Assembly (NCBI GenBank): GCA_029856145.1
Contig: JAHQWK010000022.1
Coordinates: 61,422-125,421, forward strand
Direction: 5' to 3'
Length of the DNA: 64,000 bases
DNA from: Promethearchaeia archaeon
Lineage (GTDB): Archaea; Asgardarchaeota; Lokiarchaeia; Sigyniarchaeales; SOKP01
The first letter of the stretch is position 1; every line of letters starts with the position of its first letter. Under the pieces are notes generated by a model. It saw only the letters and a program-made list of their open reading frames with translations. It did not search any database and was not told the DNA's origin. Below are positions 40,451 through 63,315 of the stretch, piece after piece. The translations under genes and the position numbers were made by a program.

Positions 40451-40822
40451 TTACTCAGTACCTTCCAAGTCACTATTTAATGTCTCATAAATTTTATTAA
40501 TTCGTGAACCGATGGTTTCAAGAAGCTGATTTTTTTCTTCTAATTCGTTTTCTAATTGAGGTGAATTGGGGCTCCTTTGAGTAAACTCTGCTAGAGATTT
40601 ACTTGTACTTTCCCGTTTTAGATGGAACGGAATAAATTCTTTCAACGCCTTTAATATATGTGCGCGTAGTTTGATGATATTTTTGCCCAAATCGTTTATT
40701 GAAATCTTCCCGCTTCTTGCTTTCATAAGGGCTTTTTTGAGATCGTCTAGATTATCTTTATCAAACACGATCTTTTCTAAAATTTCTTCAATATCTATTT
40801 TATTTTGCATTTTTGTTCTCAC
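40451..40822 (-). CDS. Small alpha-helical hypothetical protein, last gene of five-gene operon
   Basis: 123-aa ORF overlapping the upstream stop by 4 nt; C-terminal coiled-coil pattern. Confidence 0.75.
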   Translation of the reverse strand: MRTKMQNKIDIEEILEKIVFDKDNLDDLKKALMKARSGKISINDLGKNIIKLRAHILKALKEFIPFHLKRESTSKSLAEFTQRSPNSPQLENELEEKNQLLETIGSRINKIYETLNSDLEGTE

Positions 40823-43800
40823 TCCTTATTAATAAAATATTGAATCTTACCGAAAAAAGTAGAAATAGATTGATACATTTCTTTTGCGAAAGGTTCTAAA
40901 TTAGGGTCTTCTAATTTGATAACCTGATATTGATCAATAAAGTCAATAAGTTTTTGTTTTGAGAACGGAAATCCTTCGGTTTCTCCTAATACGCCCAAAA
41001 AGAAATTGAAATCGTTTATTACTACAGATTCGACATTATAAAAATGTCTGTATACCCCCATCAGATAATTTTTAATTAACCCGTGCTGAATTTTTATCGC
41101 ATTTGAATAATCACCATTATCAATAAATCTATAAATTTTGAAAATATGAAAGTAAAGATCGCCGATTTCACGTGATAAGGCTTCTATTAAGTTTTCTTTT
41201 TGGATAACATATCGTCGAGTGTGTTTTGGAAAAATAGTAGCTAAATCCTCAGAATCCATACCTTCCCGTTCTAATACTTCCACTTGAAAATCTCTATTTG
41301 CTCCTCCTTTCACTTTATAATAATCTTCTAACGCTTCTTGGTATCGTGATCCTACCGAATACGATGTTCTTAAAGCTTCCCCGCCACCCGCTCTTCGTGG
41401 ATGATTTTCTACTAAATACTCGTGTTTGATAAGAGCCTCTAATACATTTTCTATAATTCTTTTTAGGTGTTGTTTATTTTGTGTCTTTTCCGAAATTGTG
41501 GGATATAAAGATTGTTTTAAGTATTTCTTTAGTTTATCCCTGTATAAATTTCCAATCTGATCAATTGTTAATATTTGATCCATAAATTTGATGATATCTT
41601 TCACATAAATATAATAATGCCCTAAATCTATTTCAAACAAGGACTCTCGTGCTTGCTCTAATATTTTCCGTTCAGAAACATGCAAATTAAATCCTTGAGT
41701 GTCCATAAATTTCACGATCTCTTCATAAGGGAGAGTTGACTTCTCTTGGATGTCTTTCCAATCTATTATAGCAGGAAAGGGTTGGTCAATATCATCCCTC
41801 CGAGTAATTATTGTATCGTGTTTCAAATTTTTCAAATAATTAATCTGGTGGGAGTGTTTTCTTTTTGAGGAGTAAATACCTATTCCTTCAAGTTCCTGTA
41901 AGTTTACTATATTCCGTAGCATAGCAATATCTCGGGTATCTGTTGCTCTCAAGGTCATATAATTGTTAAAATATAAAAGAGCATTTGCATGAAGGTAATG
42001 AATTTGATGTGCAGAAAAGATAAGTCCAAATTTTTTCTCTACAAATGGTTTTAGAAAAATGTCCACTTTATCGTAGTTTCTTCTCAAATCCAAGAAATAT
42101 GAATCAAAGATATTATCTATATAGGGTATATATAGAATTTTTTTGTAATATTCTTCGTGATGTTGTATATAATGTCCGATTTTAGAAAGGATTACAAATG
42201 TTACAAACATTTTCTTTTTGAGGTCTCGAAATACTGAAAGATCAATTATAACGGTTTTGTTATTTTTAACGAAATCACTTGCCCCAATACTGTCTTTCTG
42301 AATTGTCTGGAAATAAGTCATTTCATTGGGGGTAAAATCTGCAAATATCGTTAGGAGGAGATCATTTACTGGGGTTTTTTCCCATTCAGTTTGATTTTGG
42401 AGTGCCATTTGAATAGAACCTAAATCCATATCAGGATTTTTTTGTATCGTTTGTCGAAACATCTCCACTATACGCTCATCTCTTTTTAATGCCAGTCCAA
42501 ACGCATCATAGATATTTTCGAGATAATCTGCATTATGAGGGTCGTAAGGAATGTCTGATTTAATAGGATCAACAATAAACGAACTTCCGTACTTGAAATA
42601 TAAGATATCTTTTTTAAACTCTGTACCATCAAAATAGGGGAGAAGTCTAGACCACTCACCGGCAAAGTCAAATACAATAGAGGGAATCTTTGCTTTAATC
42701 AGCTCAGATATGATTTTCATAGAAATTAAATCTCGATGCTCAGAAGTGCCATTCATAATAAGTAAATTATGCAACTGTTCACGTGTAAAACCAAAAGCTA
42801 CTTCTGTTTCCAATACCTCGGTATTGAATGCATGACCAATAGTAATAAAGTTTTCCAGATACAAAGGCGTATTAAACTCGGCAGCAATTTCTATATGTAC
42901 GCCTTTTTTTAGAACATCTACAATTTCCGTAAGAGGATACATATATGCTCCTTGGAACATTACATAATTTAAATGAGTCCCATTAAGTCGATATAAGTTA
43001 TGTTTTAAGACAGAAAAGAGGTATCCAGAAATTAGCGTGCTTGTCCTCATCACCTCAATTTCATATGCCTGAAAATTAATATCAAATGCCCCTTGAAGCT
43101 CATCAATTTGGGATATAAGGTCTTCTTCCATCTCGCTGAAAACAGCATCATTAAGGGTATCTACAAACTTGTAGGAGTTCACCGACATAGTGAGCATAGT
43201 AAACCACATTCCATAACGCATTCCTAACCATCTTTCTTCTTGAATCTCTTTTTGAAACCGTGTCTTATAGAACCATTGCGGGGTCAAATATTTTTTCCCT
43301 CCATTATGGTAAAAATCATAAAAAGATAGTGGCTGATTTTTCAAAGTATAGCTAAAATTTACTTTATGATTATTCAGGCTTTCAATAAACTTTCCCAGCA
43401 AGCAGAAGGGTCTGTTATACACATGCTTCAGATTTACTAGTTTCATCCCAATAAGAAGTCGATTCTCTACATGGAAAAAGACACTATAAGGAAATTCTCT
43501 TACCCTGTAGAATTGGACATCAGCAAATGGTTTTGTAACGATAATATCATCTGTCTTTATGAGTTTTGATTTTGTAAACTGAAATAATAAGGATCTCCAC
43601 CATAATAAGGTTAATCCGACAATGAATACTAGATTTATACAAATAATATAGAAAATAAGCAGATTCATAAAAAAAAATAGAAATAAACTAAAATAGAATA
43701 CCAATCCAGCACATATACCGAATTTCCAAAAGATATGTGAATTATTTGAATTTAAAGCTTTTTTCTTGTTAATAGGTGTCTCGTAGGTGGCCACCTTTTC

Positions 43801-62585: not shown

Positions 62586-62604
62586 CTGCGAAAAGAAAAC
62601 TCAC

Positions 62605-63315
62605 ATGCAAATAGAAGTAGATTTTTTTGGGGGAATAAGAAAGTTACTTACTCATCATAATATAATATCTATCTCAGGTGAGTCTGGGACAGGAAAAACT
62701 ACTCTTGGTCTTCAACTAGTAGGAACACTTCTCACTTATGAAGAACCATATTTAGATTCATGTGTTTGGGTTCAAGCAAGTGAATTATTCTCTCTGAAAC
62801 GTTTAACTCAAGTATTCCAAGAAAAGGGTAAGAAATTAAAATATATTCAAAATAATATTTATGTCATCCCTCAAGAAAGACCAGTCCATACTTATGTACA
62901 ACAATCTTCAATTATTCAACAAATTATTAGACCAACAGCTATTATCCCACCTTCATTGAAATATATAGTTATTGATAATATCTCTCACCATTTACGCTAT
63001 ATGCTAACCAAATTTCATAGCCCAAAGGATATTTCATCATTACTAGATAGCTTTTACGAAATGCAGTTAATGCCACTCATTTTGTTTTGTAAACGAAATG
63101 AAATTGTCTTGATTTTAATTCATGAGGTTACGTTTAGTCCTAAAGACCAAGGTAATAGACCTTTCTTCTATAAATTATATGATAGGATAAAAACAATAGA
63201 TATGGTATTATATAACATATACAATAATGAAAAGAAGAATTTACACATTCTTTTTAATAACATGAATTGGAATTTTCAGTTTACAATAGAGCGAGACGGT
63301 ATAGCATTCATTTAG
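62605..63315 (+). CDS. RecA/Rad51-family paralogue (RadB-like, ATPase domain only)
   Basis: ISISGESGTGKTTLGLQL, WVQASELFSLKRL, IVIDNISHHLR, LILIHEV. Confidence 0.82.
   Translation: MQIEVDFFGGIRKLLTHHNIISISGESGTGKTTLGLQLVGTLLTYEEPYLDSCVWVQASELFSLKRLTQVFQEKGKKLKYIQNNIYVIPQERPVHTYVQQSSIIQQIIRPTAIIPPSLKYIVIDNISHHLRYMLTKFHSPKDISSLLDSFYEMQLMPLILFCKRNEIVLILIHEVTFSPKDQGNRPFFYKLYDRIKTIDMVLYNIYNNEKKNLHILFNNMNWNFQFTIERDGIAFI

What the first reader, a model, noticed from the sequence alone, without database searches (positions are those of the whole stretch)
40451..63315. Putative DNA-exchange plus homologous-recombination system, analogous to crenarchaeal Ced/TFB3
Seen: a tightly coupled operon (48270 to 40451; overlaps or gaps of at most 4 nt) encodes a membrane-anchored HhH protein, a 4-TM protein, a 2-TM protein, a membrane-anchored HerA/VirB4-like protein and a small helical protein. 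It is divergent from a Hel308-like helicase and clustered with a Hef/FANCM helicase, a Rad51/RadB paralogue, a surface protein, a membrane protease and a TFB paralogue. Established: in Sulfolobales the Ced importer (CedA membrane proteins + HerA/VirB4-like CedB) moves chromosomal DNA between cells for repair and is induced through the TFB paralogue TFB3. Inference: this block is an independent Asgard solution linking DNA at the membrane (uptake, exchange or chromosome tethering) to recombination. No relaxase, integrase or pilin is visible, which argues for a chromosomal rather than conjugative role.
Basis: partly seen in the sequence, partly recalled or inferred. Interest (0 to 1): 0.85.

Follow-up and report, generated by a model that had tools for sequence, protein, structure and literature searches.

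The report
Asgard membrane-anchored DNA recombination gene cluster
This Lokiarchaeon-type genome carries a conserved block of genes that ties extra copies of DNA-recombination enzymes to membrane and surface proteins built around a permanently inactive relative of the conjugation motor VirB4; no paper we could search describes it, and it may be how these relatives of eukaryotes exchange or repair DNA at the cell membrane.

Summary
A five-gene operon (48279-40451, minus strand; joints of 0-4 nt) lies beside a Hel308-type helicase, a Hef-type helicase, a Rad51-paralogue-like ATPase, a surface protein, an HExxH membrane protein and a TFB-like factor.

The 1267-aa protein has a VirB4/HerA fold (Z 23-25). 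Its Walker A and B motifs are degenerate in all 30 homologues aligned, so it cannot be a CedB-like motor.

The linkage is not local chance.
- The block is syntenic across the family, and still clustered where it is rearranged.
- In eight other Asgard families, shorter ATP-dead homologues sit in operons with Hel308-like helicases. Depending on the family these operons also hold RadA paralogues, XPD, FEN1-like nuclease, RecA-like ATPases, small membrane proteins and large surface proteins.
- Three near-complete relatives lack the whole set but keep the housekeeping paralogues.

No integrase, tRNA or defence-family match was found.

Best reading: a chromosomal, dispensable, membrane-bound DNA-handling and recombination apparatus, probably for DNA import or exchange. 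Function is untested.

It resembles Ced/Ted but fails their membership tests. No searched paper describes it. This scan had already noted the same system on at least eight other genomes.

The parts
46219..48279 (-). Membrane-anchored HhH protein. Layout: TPR-like helices, a RadA/Rad51-N-terminal-type HhH2, an acidic disordered linker, an alpha/beta domain of unidentified fold, a TM hairpin, and a helical tail ending in the conserved KYSSFLED.
   Evidence: - Pfam HHH_5, E 7e-12.
- Profile A4 against PDB: Rad51 1pzn E 2.5e-11.
- AF2 model m935ed2c350ab, pLDDT 74.
- Foldseek and VIA-wide match only the TPR-like and HhH parts.
- Found in 67 of 70 family genomes, counting HhH-only hits; full-length matches occur in genomes that carry the operon.
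45484..46218 (-). 244-aa protein with 3-4 transmembrane segments and an acidic C-terminal tail.
   Evidence: - Hydropathy.
- No Pfam, NCBIfam or PADLOC family.
- Syntenic in relatives.
44627..45487 (-). 286-aa protein with a soluble N-terminal part and a C-terminal TM hairpin.
   Evidence: - Hydropathy.
- No family match.
- No usable ESM Atlas hit.
- Syntenic in relatives.
40819..44622 (-). 1267-aa membrane-anchored, ATP-dead VirB4/HerA-type protein. Layout: two tandem [TM hairpin + alpha/beta domain] modules, a P-loop-fold domain with degenerate Walker A and B, a probable winged-helix domain, and a C-terminal helical bundle.
   Evidence: - Pfam DUF87, E 9e-4, below the cut-off.
- Motif alignments.
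- AF2 model m1be865338426, pLDDT 79.
- Foldseek: TrwK/VirB4 E 5e-12, HerA 7e-11.
- VIA: VirB4 4ag5 Z 25.2, DndH-C 24.9, HerA 23.5.
- Phage VirB4-like proteins align over about 850 columns.
- Internal duplication: hhalign probability 98.4, E 6e-15.
40451..40822 (-). 123-aa helical protein, the last gene of the operon.
   Evidence: - 4-nt overlap with the upstream gene.
- Conserved downstream of the pseudo-ATPase in relatives.
- Only sub-threshold Pfam hits.
48298..48310 (-). TATA/BRE-like box TTTTCTTTATATA, 19-31 nt upstream of the conserved start of the operon.
   Evidence: -.
- TTTTCTTTAWAT occurs 4 times in the cluster against 0.59 expected from the genome-wide density.
- The same 9-mer lies upstream of homologous units in G192, G008 and G210.
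48396..48408 (-). 13-mer box CTTATAATTTGCT upstream of the operon. Further exact copies lie at 48505-48517 (+) and at 59725-59737 (-), the latter upstream of the surface-protein gene.
   Evidence: - 3 exact copies, all in this cluster's intergenic DNA; 0 of 100 shuffles reach the 5 matches found at up to 1 mismatch.
- The 11-mer core has 14 copies genome-wide, with 0.09 expected in the cluster.
- Not conserved as an exact word in relatives.
48430..48552 (+). GC-rich structured element between the divergent units. It may or may not belong to the system.
   Evidence: - MFE -45.8 kcal/mol, z -4.8.
- No Rfam match.
- A 62-nt core is 91-97% conserved at the same place in relatives, and has identical copies elsewhere in the genome.
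48813..49085 (+). 90-aa Cys/His-rich small protein upstream of the helicase; reading it as a zinc ribbon is my inference from the sequence, not a test.
   Evidence: - Translation.
- Conserved in relatives.
- A homologue lies beside the Hef-like gene in family f2, locus L103.
49169..51649 (+). Hel308/Hjm-type Ski2-like helicase, a private paralogue, divergent from the operon.
   Evidence: - Pfam DEAD, Helicase_C and Helicase_dom4_arc.
- PDB 2zj2 E 2e-85.
- A second Ski2-like paralogue lies on C24.
- The orthologue is missing where the operon is missing.
- Adjacent to pseudo-ATPase homologues in families f9, f11, f14, f17, f28 and f32.
53358..53882 (-). 174-aa DUF1922 zinc-ribbon protein, the last gene of the Hef unit.
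   Evidence: - Pfam DUF1922, E 1.6e-7.
- Homologues lie next to RecA-like genes in L098 and L099.
53886..56057 (-). Hef/FANCM-type helicase, a private paralogue. No ERCC4 nuclease domain was detected.
   Evidence: - Pfam.
- PDB 1wp9 E 8e-104 and FANCM 9el5 E 3e-66.
- Two further paralogues in the genome.
- The cluster orthologue is absent from G171, G138 and G144.
56050..56682 (-). 210-aa protein of unknown family, first gene of the Hef unit (8-nt overlap).
   Evidence: -.
- Syntenic in relatives.
56720..59719 (-). 999-aa surface protein with an alpha/alpha-toroid (prenyltransferase-type) domain, an N-terminal signal-anchor and a C-terminal TM.
   Evidence: - Pfam Prenyltrans, E 6e-17.
- TM segments 32-50 and 966-984.
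- A homologue lies in the same operon as the RecA-like and Hel308-like genes in family f11.
59808..61055 (-). TFB/TFIIB-like factor: Zn ribbon, cyclin-like region and a C-terminal extension.
   Evidence: - Zn_Ribbon_TF, 20 bits, below the cut-off.
- Profile A7 against TFIIB cyclin, E 5e-4.
- Homologues lie beside type-2 loci and in f2.
- Multicopy in G171 and G210.
61477..62223 (+). 248-aa polytopic membrane protein with an HEFAH motif, a possible M50B/DUF3267-type metalloprotease.
   Evidence: - Sequence.
- TM prediction.
- ESM Atlas nearest named clusters are M50B/DUF3267 at 0.82-0.84, a lead only.
- Adjacent to pseudo-ATPase paralogues in type-2 loci, in f2 and in f28.
62241..62585 (+). 114-aa small membrane protein with an acidic coiled tail.
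   Evidence: -.
- Weak VirB3 hit, E 6e-3, far below the cut-off.
62605..63315 (+). 236-aa RecA-superfamily ATPase with an intact Walker A, Rad51-paralogue/RadB/KaiC-like.
   Evidence: - NCBIfam RadB 32.6 bits against a cut-off of 172.
- PDB Rad57 E 4e-6.
- Counterparts in distant operons.
- Absent from G171, G138 and G144.

Best explanation
The block is the Lokiarchaeia-family version of an Asgard-wide, chromosomal but dispensable gene set.

**Parts.**
- Its core is a membrane-anchored protein with the VirB4 architecture (TM hairpin, N-terminal domain, P-loop domain). It has lost ATP hydrolysis and gained a probable winged-helix tail.
- In this family the core is coupled to a membrane-tethered RadA-type HhH DNA-binding protein and to two small membrane proteins.
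- It is always kept with private paralogues of recombination enzymes: a Hel308-like helicase, a Hef-like helicase and a Rad51-paralogue ATPase.
- It also travels with a large surface protein, a putative membrane metalloprotease and a TFB-like factor.

**Shown.** The fold, the dead motifs, the topology, the conserved linkage and the co-loss.

**Inferred.** The dead VirB4-like ring serves as a membrane scaffold or portal. The HhH and winged-helix parts hold DNA at the inner face of the membrane. The Hel308-like helicase supplies the motor, much as ComFA does in bacterial transformation. The Rad51 paralogues and Hef process the DNA for homologous recombination.

The most likely biological role is import or exchange of DNA between cells, feeding recombination, as in Ced/Ted.

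**Confidence.** That this is one functional membrane-plus-recombination module: about 0.85. That its role is DNA import or exchange: about 0.4.
For: **Structure of the core protein.**
- Operon joints of 0-4 nt.
- VirB4/HerA fold of the core protein.
- Degenerate Walker A and B in all 30 homologues, and in distant 530-850-aa relatives.
- Tandem duplication of the TM-hairpin module.
- RadA-type HhH.

**Conserved linkage.**
- Family-wide synteny, with clustering kept after rearrangement in G210.
- In families f9, f11, f14, f17, f28 and f32 the pseudo-ATPase homologue lies within about 6 kb of a Hel308-like helicase. In f9, f11, f17 and f28 the two genes lie in one same-strand run, and in f9 and f28 they are next to each other with overlapping ends; in f14 and f32 the helicase is on the opposite strand.
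- The distant loci (f21 included) also hold RadA paralogues, XPD, FEN1/XPG-like nuclease, RecA-like ATPases, small TM proteins and 900-1100-aa membrane-anchored proteins.

**Private paralogues and co-loss.**
- The operon RadA copies are extra paralogues beside a canonical RadA.
- G171, G138 and G144 (98-99% complete) lack the operon, the HhH protein, the Hel308-like orthologue, the RecA-like gene and the cluster Hef. They keep the housekeeping paralogues.

**Precedent.** Ted loci co-localise with HerA and Rad50 (PMC9905601).
Against: - No motor ATPase of the VirB4 type.
- No recognisable VirB6/CedA-like channel, ComEC-like channel or VirB2-like pilin.
- By topology the HhH domain is cytoplasmic, unlike ComEA.
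- Co-loss can be explained by a single deletion of adjacent genes.
- General synteny is high in this family; the flanking genes 35907-40325 are syntenic too.
- Type-2 paralogue loci pair the same scaffold with a Cdc48_N protein and a TPR protein, with no recombination genes. The scaffold is therefore not intrinsically tied to DNA.
- No expression, interaction or DNA-binding data exist.
Confidence: 0.45

Rival explanations
1. An intracellular repair or chromosome-tethering platform. The dead ring and the HhH protein anchor broken or replicating chromosomal DNA to the membrane, where the private helicases and Rad51 paralogues repair it or pair homologous copies. No DNA crosses the membrane.
For: - All large soluble domains, including the HhH, are predicted to be cytoplasmic.
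- No channel or pilin was found.
- The ATPase is dead.
- The architecture of TM segments, P-loop fold and winged helix recalls FtsK (Z 13.5 for FtsK).
Against: Nearly every locus, in distant families too, carries a 900-1100-aa membrane-anchored and mostly extracellular protein, plus several small TM proteins. An internal repair platform would not need these.
Confidence: 0.25
2. A membrane signalling device. The HExxH membrane protein cleaves a membrane-tethered partner (the winged-helix pseudo-ATPase or an anti-factor) and so releases or activates the TFB-like factor. This switches on a DNA-damage or stress regulon, by analogy with site-2-protease/anti-sigma systems.
For: - The pseudo-ATPase, the HExxH protein and the TFB-like gene are the parts shared by type-1 loci, type-2 loci and family f2.
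- HEFAH motif, with an M50B/DUF3267 lead.
- Shared 13-mer box upstream of two units.
Against: - The TFB-like and HExxH genes are not found in most distant loci, whereas the Hel308-like helicase and the RecA-like genes are.
- The protease assignment is only a lead.
- This reading does not explain the private recombination enzymes.
Confidence: 0.1
3. A mobile element or an anti-virus defence island that merely carries helicase and ATPase genes.
For: - Patchy distribution in the phylum: 119 of 268 genomes.
- Fast divergence of the operon proteins (30-70% identity, against 57-89% for the helicase).
- Extra copies in some genomes, and one full operon in a distant family, G241.
- The fold resembles DndH and the defence-type HerA proteins.
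Against: - Same chromosomal neighbourhood across the family.
- Uniform base composition.
- No integrase in the genome and no tRNA in the window.
- No PADLOC family for the operon proteins.
- The ATPase is dead.
Confidence: 0.05
4. Coincidental neighbourhood: unrelated membrane genes and repair genes that stay adjacent only through inherited gene order.
For: Flanking, apparently unrelated genes are also syntenic within the family.
Against: - The same combination recurs with different gene orders and partners in at least eight other Asgard families.
- Start and stop codons overlap between the pseudo-ATPase and the Hel308-like gene in f9 and f28.
Confidence: 0.05

Closest known systems
Ced (Sulfolobales/Desulfurococcales) and Ted (Thermoproteales) DNA-import systems, which are domesticated type IV secretion (PMC9905601, PMC11868833)
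   Same: - Chromosomal archaeal systems built around a membrane-bound VirB4/HerA-type protein and small TM proteins.
- Ted loci sit beside recombination genes (HerA, Rad50).
- A TFB paralogue controls Ced in Sulfolobales.
- The CedB/CedD N-terminal domains are VirB4-NTD-like, as the module before the P-loop domain here appears to be.
   Different: - The VirB4-like protein here has no Walker A lysine and no Walker B acidic pair.
- No CedA/VirB6-like channel or CedA1/VirB2-like pilin was recognised.
- The partners are private Hel308-, Hef-, RadA/RadB- (and elsewhere XPD-, FEN1-) type enzymes, an HhH membrane protein and a large toroid surface protein.
- No sequence-level relation to CedB or TedB could be shown.
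VirB4 (TrwK) with VirB3 of bacterial type IV secretion
   Same: - Best structural matches: 8rtd E 5e-12; 4ag5 Z 25.2, rmsd 4.0, 330 residues.
- Full-length TrwK aligns from the N-terminal domain through the P-loop domain.
- The N-terminal TM hairpin resembles VirB3-VirB4 fusions.
- Phage VirB4-like proteins align over about 850 columns.
   Different: - Catalytic motifs are lost.
- The TM-hairpin + N-domain module is duplicated.
- A winged-helix and helical-bundle tail is added.
- There are no other T4SS subunits.
- HerA and DndH-C score within about 1-2 Z units, so the clade is not settled.
HerA-NurA/Mre11-Rad50 end-resection operon of archaea
   Same: A HerA/FtsK-superfamily ring protein genetically linked to homologous-recombination enzymes.
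   Different: - HerA is soluble, active and paired with the NurA nuclease.
- This genome has five other DUF87/HerA-type genes.
- The protein here is membrane-bound and inactive, and no NurA, Mre11 or Rad50 family was detected among the block's genes (Pfam scans).
Bacterial natural-transformation machinery (ComEA, ComEC, ComFA, DprA, RecA)
   Same: The logic is alike: a membrane-anchored HhH DNA binder, an SF2 helicase at the inner face of the membrane, and recombinase loading.
   Different: - No homology beyond the HhH and helicase folds.
- The HhH is predicted to be cytoplasmic, not extracellular.
- No ComEC-like channel.
FtsK/SpoIIIE
   Same: N-terminal TM segments, a HerA/FtsK-superfamily domain, and a C-terminal winged-helix-like DNA-binding domain.
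   Different: - Weaker structural match (Z 13.5).
- Inactive motor.
- No Xer partner.

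Membership tests
Ced/Ted DNA importer | Membrane-bound VirB4/HerA-type protein | tested here: met
   - TM hairpins.
- Fold matches VirB4 4ag5 at Z 25.2 and HerA 4d2i at Z 23.5.
- Foldseek 8rtd E 5e-12.
Ced/Ted DNA importer | That protein is an active ATPase (Walker A GxxGxGK[ST], Walker B hhhhDE) | tested here: not met
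   - Walker A reads NG-x4-R-E/D and Walker B reads h-h-P-x-h-D in all 30 homologues.
- Distant relatives read GGT-x-E-Q-R.
Ced/Ted DNA importer | CedA/TedA (VirB6-like) polytopic channel of 6-7 TM | tested here: inconclusive
   - No Pfam or NCBIfam match for the 3-4-TM protein, or for any other membrane protein of the block.
Ced/Ted DNA importer | CedA1/TedC (VirB2-like) pilin | not tested
   Small TM proteins exist (62241-62585, 63367-63699), but they were not modelled.
Ced/Ted DNA importer | Induction by DNA damage through a TFB paralogue | not testable with these tools
   A TFB-like gene is adjacent, but no expression data are available.
VirB4 (type IV secretion ATPase) | N-terminal domain plus C-terminal P-loop domain architecture | tested here: met
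   - Full-length TrwK aligns to model residues 22-633 (Z 16-18).
- Phage VirB4-like proteins align over 746-853 columns.
VirB4 (type IV secretion ATPase) | Catalytic P-loop, and co-occurrence with other T4SS subunits | tested here: not met
   - Motifs are degenerate.
- No T4SS family among the neighbours, except a VirB3 hit at E 6e-3 that is far below its cut-off.
HerA (DUF87) | Pfam DUF87 above the gathering score | tested here: inconclusive
   - 19.8 bits against a cut-off of 23.2 by hmmscan.
- 22.7 bits, or 23.4 with neighbouring matches, in the six-frame search.
- Profile A1 against PDB reaches HerA only at E 0.7.
Hel308/Hjm | Ski2-like helicase core with the archaeal domain 4 | tested here: met
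   - Pfam DEAD, Helicase_C and Helicase_dom4_arc.
- 2zj2 E 2e-85, 2va8 E 3e-75, 2p6r E 2.5e-70.
Hef/FANCM | Hef-type helicase domain with a helical insertion | tested here: met
   - 1wp9 E 8e-104 and FANCM 9el5 E 3e-66.
- Pfam RNA_helicase_helical.
Hef/FANCM | C-terminal ERCC4/XPF nuclease domain | tested here: inconclusive
   No ERCC4 family among the Pfam hits for residues 530-723. The structure was not modelled.
RadB | NCBIfam TIGR02237 at the equivalog score | tested here: not met
   - 32.6 bits against a cut-off of 172.4.
- The best PDB relatives are Rad57 and RadA, so this is a RecA-superfamily Rad51-paralogue-like protein, not orthologous RadB.
TFB/TFIIB | Zn ribbon plus two cyclin repeats | tested here: inconclusive
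   - Zn_Ribbon_TF 20 bits against a cut-off of 29.
- The single sequence finds no PDB relative.
- Profile A7 matches the first TFIIB cyclin repeat at E 5e-4.
M50B/DUF3267 membrane metalloprotease | HExxH in a polytopic membrane protein, with a family match | tested here: inconclusive
   - HEFAH motif present.
- No Pfam hit.
- ESM Atlas named neighbours score only 0.82-0.84.

The most novel reading that the evidence does not exclude
Asgard archaea possess a machine of a previously unknown kind. A motor-dead descendant of the conjugation ATPase forms a membrane portal or anchor. A dedicated Hel308-type helicase and private Rad51-family recombinases work on it, to bring in or pair homologous DNA from other cells or genome copies. 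This would be a prokaryotic forerunner of membrane-coupled chromosome pairing and sexual recombination in the lineage that gave rise to eukaryotes.
Probability: 0.3. Interest if true: 0.95.

Novelty: new variant of a known kind. Interest (0 to 1): 0.78.

Why it matters
How Asgard archaea exchange and recombine DNA is unknown. The origin of eukaryotic sex and of the Rad51 paralogue families is an open question.

This cluster gives a concrete and widely conserved candidate. It encodes private Hel308-, Hef-, RadA/RadB-type enzymes (and XPD and FEN1 types in other families). These are physically encoded with a membrane complex, surface proteins and a dedicated TFB-like factor.

The dead VirB4-type core also shows how a secretion or conjugation ATPase can be reused as a scaffold.

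Cultured Lokiarchaeia now exist, and natural loss lineages were found here. The hypothesis can therefore be tested by transcriptomics, by interaction studies and by comparing recombination rates.

Tried and rejected
**Searches that gave nothing or little.**
- PADLOC scan of ten proteins of the block (the five operon proteins and five neighbours): nothing for the four smaller operon proteins, and only a PglW match on the HhH stretch of the 702-aa protein.
- Rfam scan of 40000-64000: nothing credible.
- ESM Atlas for the 286-aa protein: no usable hit.
- Single-sequence PDB search for the TFB-like protein: nothing.
- Profile A1 against PDB sequences: only HerA at E 0.7. Sequence methods alone do not place the core protein.

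**Ideas tested and not supported.**
- 'Hjc-like dead nuclease' in the HhH protein. Foldseek and VIA-wide matched only the TPR-like and HhH parts. The 286-490 alpha/beta domain found no solved relative in a whole-protein search. This is inconclusive, because the domain was not searched alone.
- A RecA-core remnant in that same domain. The predicted antiparallel beta-rich topology does not look RecA-like. It was not formally tested.
- Mobile-element reading. There is no PF00589 integrase anywhere in the genome, no tRNA in the window, and even base composition.
- The 13-mer box as a conserved regulon signal. It is exact only in this genome. The one further CTTATAATTTGCTA copy, on C11, lies inside a coding region.

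**Tool note.** Contexts were taken with the fetch from genomes instead.

Full report
**1. What is there**

The window is G000:C22:61422-125421 of a 3.55-Mb Asgard (Promethearchaeota) assembly with about 31% G+C. On the minus strand five genes are packed head to tail:
- 46219-48327, whose conserved start MIRMTD is at 48279
- 45484-46218
- 44627-45487
- 40819-44622
- 40451-40822

The joints are 0, -4, +4 and -4 nt.

Hydropathy and Pfam give the following:
- a protein with an HhH_5 domain (E 7e-12) and a TM hairpin at 532-574
- a 3-4-TM protein
- a protein with a C-terminal TM hairpin
- a 1267-aa protein with two TM hairpins and a sub-threshold DUF87/HerA hit
- a 123-aa soluble protein

Divergent from this operon lie a 90-aa Cys/His-rich ORF (possibly a zinc ribbon) and a Hel308/Hjm-type helicase (2zj2 E 2e-85). 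Further on are:
- a three-gene unit holding a Hef-type helicase (1wp9 E 8e-104)
- a 999-aa surface protein with an alpha/alpha toroid domain
- a TFB-like gene
- a plus-strand unit with an HEFAH membrane protein, a small TM protein and a Rad51-paralogue-like ATPase

**2. The core protein is a dead VirB4/HerA-type protein**

An AlphaFold2 model of residues 345-1267, built from 30 homologues (pLDDT 79), was searched against solved structures.
- Foldseek matches TrwK/VirB4 of plasmid R388 (E 5e-12) and HerA (E 7e-11).
- VIA-align gives Z 25.2 for VirB4 4ag5 (rmsd 4.0, 330 residues), 24.9 for the DndH C-domain, 23.5 for HerA and 22.4 for TrwB. These are effectively tied.
- Full-length TrwK aligns from the domain before the P-loop fold onwards (model 22-633).
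- Phage VirB4-like 'conjugal transfer' proteins align over about 850 columns.

The overall architecture therefore looks VirB4-like rather than HerA-like.

In every one of 30 aligned homologues (18-72% identity to the window's protein) the Walker A position reads NG-x4-R-E/D and the Walker B position reads h-h-P-x-h-D. Shorter relatives of 530-850 aa from other families read GGT-x-E-Q-R. The family is therefore an ATP-dead derivative.

The N-terminal half is a tandem duplication of [TM hairpin + alpha/beta domain] (hhalign probability 98.4, E 6e-15). The C-terminus has a probable winged helix (weak MAGE, HTH_34 and PadR hits) and a helical bundle.

A profile search of 1.84 billion cluster representatives found only 291 relatives at E<=1e-3. 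This is a small and fast-evolving family.

**3. The HhH protein**

A model from 30 homologues (pLDDT 74) shows, in order:
- TPR-like helices
- an HhH2 domain whose best relatives are the N-terminal domains of RadA/Rad51 (1pzn E 2.5e-11)
- a disordered acidic linker
- a confident alpha/beta domain (286-490) with no solved relative found
- a TM hairpin
- a helical tail ending in the conserved KYSSFLED

There is no signal peptide, and two TM segments follow a 500-residue N-terminal part. The HhH domain should therefore face the cytoplasm; this topology is inferred.

**4. Is the linkage meaningful?**

*Within the family.* The core protein is found in 54 of 68 genomes with a single query and in 89 of 105 with a profile. 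The whole block is syntenic in G192, G008, G207, G083, G040 and two named MAGs. In G210 it is rearranged yet still clustered. The flanking genes 35907-40325 are syntenic too, so synteny alone is weak evidence.

*Across the phylum.* The stronger evidence comes from distant families.
- f9: a co-directional overlapping operon reads unknown, unknown, RadA paralogue, two unknowns, XPD-like helicase, 2-TM protein, small protein, pseudo-ATPase, Hel308-like helicase, TM protein, RecA-like ATPase, 6-TM protein, Rad51-like protein, XPG/FEN1-like nuclease.
- f28: nearly the same set as f9.
- f11: toroid surface protein, RecA-like ATPase, 5-TM protein, Hel308-like helicase, three small TM proteins, pseudo-ATPase.
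- f17, f32 and f14: the pseudo-ATPase lies within a few kilobases of a Hel308-like helicase. f32 and f14 also have a RecA-like plus DUF1922-like pair.
- f21: a RadA paralogue and a 3-TM M28-peptidase protein lie next to the pseudo-ATPase.
- f2: the full-length form sits with the HExxH protein, plus either a TFB-like gene (L062) or a Hef-like helicase and a more distant Ski2-type helicase (E 5e-26 to the Hel308-like model) (L103).

The operon RadA copies are additional to a canonical RadA elsewhere in those genomes.

*Co-loss.* Three 98-99%-complete relatives (G171, G138, G144) lack five items together: the type-1 pseudo-ATPase, the HhH protein, the Hel308-like orthologue, the RecA-like gene and the cluster-type Hef. 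They retain an 893-aa Ski2-like paralogue and the two other Hef paralogues.

The cluster's enzymes are thus private paralogues, and the system is dispensable. Because the genes are adjacent, a single deletion could also explain the co-loss.

**5. A second flavour**

Some genomes (G008, G171) carry a paralogous locus reading [stand-alone Cdc48_N protein]-[TPR + TM protein]-[pseudo-ATPase]-[HExxH membrane protein]. G171 carries it twice at about 93-97% identity, with a TFB-like gene about 3 kb away. These loci hold no HhH protein and no recombination genes.

The parts shared by both flavours and by f2 are the pseudo-ATPase, the HExxH protein and the TFB-like gene. The scaffold can therefore be combined with different adaptors. 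This keeps a regulatory or proteolytic reading alive.

**6. Not a mobile element or defence island**

- Base composition is even.
- No tyrosine integrase is found anywhere in the genome.
- No tRNA gene is found in the window.
- The PADLOC scan of ten proteins of the block gave no defence family for the four smaller operon proteins; the HhH protein gave only a PglW match on its HhH stretch.
- The chromosomal neighbourhood is stable.
- One full operon in a distant family (G241, 36% identity) may be transfer or mis-binning.

**7. Regulatory DNA**

A BRE/TATA-like TTTTCTTTATATA lies 19-31 nt upstream of the operon start. Related words lie upstream of the helicase unit, of a small ORF and of the HExxH unit (4 in the cluster against 0.59 expected).

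A 13-mer, CTTATAATTTGYT, occurs exactly three times in the window. All three are in this cluster's intergenic DNA: two flank the divergent promoter region and one lies upstream of the surface-protein gene. The 11-mer core has 14 copies genome-wide, with 0.09 expected here. It is not conserved as an exact word in relatives. This is suggestive of co-regulation but weak.

**8. Mechanism**

*Shown:* fold, dead motifs, topology, conserved linkage and co-loss.

*Inferred:* the dead VirB4-like protein oligomerises as a ring at the inner face of the membrane and acts as scaffold or portal. The HhH and winged-helix parts hold DNA. The Hel308-like helicase is the motor; its gene overlaps the ring's gene in f9 and f28. 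The Rad51-family paralogues and Hef (XPD and FEN1 elsewhere) process the DNA for homologous recombination. The large surface proteins and small TM proteins, present in nearly every locus, point to an envelope-spanning function.

I therefore rank DNA import or exchange (about 0.4) above an internal repair or tethering platform (about 0.25) and a signalling device (about 0.1).

**9. Comparison with the known**

Ced and Ted are T4SS-derived archaeal DNA importers with CedB/TedB (VirB4-like), CedA/TedA (VirB6-like) and CedA1/TedC (VirB2-like). Ted loci co-localise with HerA and Rad50 (PMC9905601). The N-terminal domains of CedB and CedD match parts of the VirB4 NTD (PMC11868833).

The present system shares the VirB4-type core, the membrane setting and the recombination linkage. 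It fails the active-ATPase criterion, and no channel or pilin was recognised. It works perhaps like Ced/Ted but is not a member.

Full-text searches found no description of this cluster.

**10. Relation to earlier notes of this scan**

After reaching the above reading I queried the scan's notes. At least eight follow-up reports on other genomes describe the same Asgard cluster and name Ced/Ted as the closest known system. They are unchecked AI notes and are not counted as evidence.

The lead about a shared promoter box was tested here, with the partial result given above.

New in this window:
- the Lokiarchaeia-family elaboration (HhH-TM protein, duplicated N-module)
- the Cdc48_N/TPR paralogue locus
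- the natural loss lineages

**11. Verdict**

This is a real, apparently undescribed, phylum-wide module whose function is untested.

Noticed in passing
window 48425-48560; also G000 C4:46475-46538, C11:154063-154124 and C23 near 8057-8085: A GC-rich structured element of about 125 nt lies between the divergent units (MFE -45.8 kcal/mol, z -4.8; no Rfam match). It has a 62-nt core that is 100% identical at two other intergenic sites of this genome. The core is 91-97% conserved at the same intergenic place in relatives whose flanking proteins are only about 40% identical. The outer stems differ between copies but still pair. It looks like an undescribed small-RNA family or a structured repeat.
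   Followed up: partly
L027:16087-17754 with L028 (G171 C22); L033/L034 (G008 C59); G171 C23: Paralogue ('type-2') loci read stand-alone Cdc48_N protein, TPR + TM protein, ATP-dead VirB4-like protein, HExxH membrane protein, with a TFB-like gene about 3 kb away. They hold no recombination genes. The G171 copies and the G008 copy are about 92% identical to one another, although the type-1 proteins of this genus diverge to about 45%.
   Followed up: partly
window 52791-53006 and 53104-53340: Two tandem paralogous small ORFs (71 and 78 aa, 45% identical), with further copies on C26 and C13. The C26 copy lies next to a paralogue of the DUF1922-type gene 53358-53882. This is a small multicopy protein family of unknown role.
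   Followed up: no
L067 (G241 C266:1-12387): A genome assigned to a distant Asgard family (f24) carries a complete type-1 operon and the 90-aa small Cys/His-rich gene, at 34-36% identity. Fourteen of 15 genomes of that family lack it. The cause may be horizontal transfer or a mis-binned contig.
   Followed up: no
G171 (C22, C23, C36, C56) and G210 (C9 twice, C6): The TFB-like gene of the cluster is single-copy in this genome. It is present in four copies in G171 and three in G210, at 45-50% identity to the window's protein.
   Followed up: no
window 38418-40325: A 635-aa protein with a C-terminal DUF998/Frag1-like multi-TM domain follows the operon, and is syntenic with it in several relatives. 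Whether it belongs to the system was not examined.
   Followed up: no
L059:5904-8552 and L100:5809-8475 (family f21): In family f21 the large membrane protein between the RadA paralogue and the pseudo-ATPase carries a peptidase M28 domain instead of the alpha/alpha toroid seen here. The surface component of the system is therefore variable.
   Followed up: no
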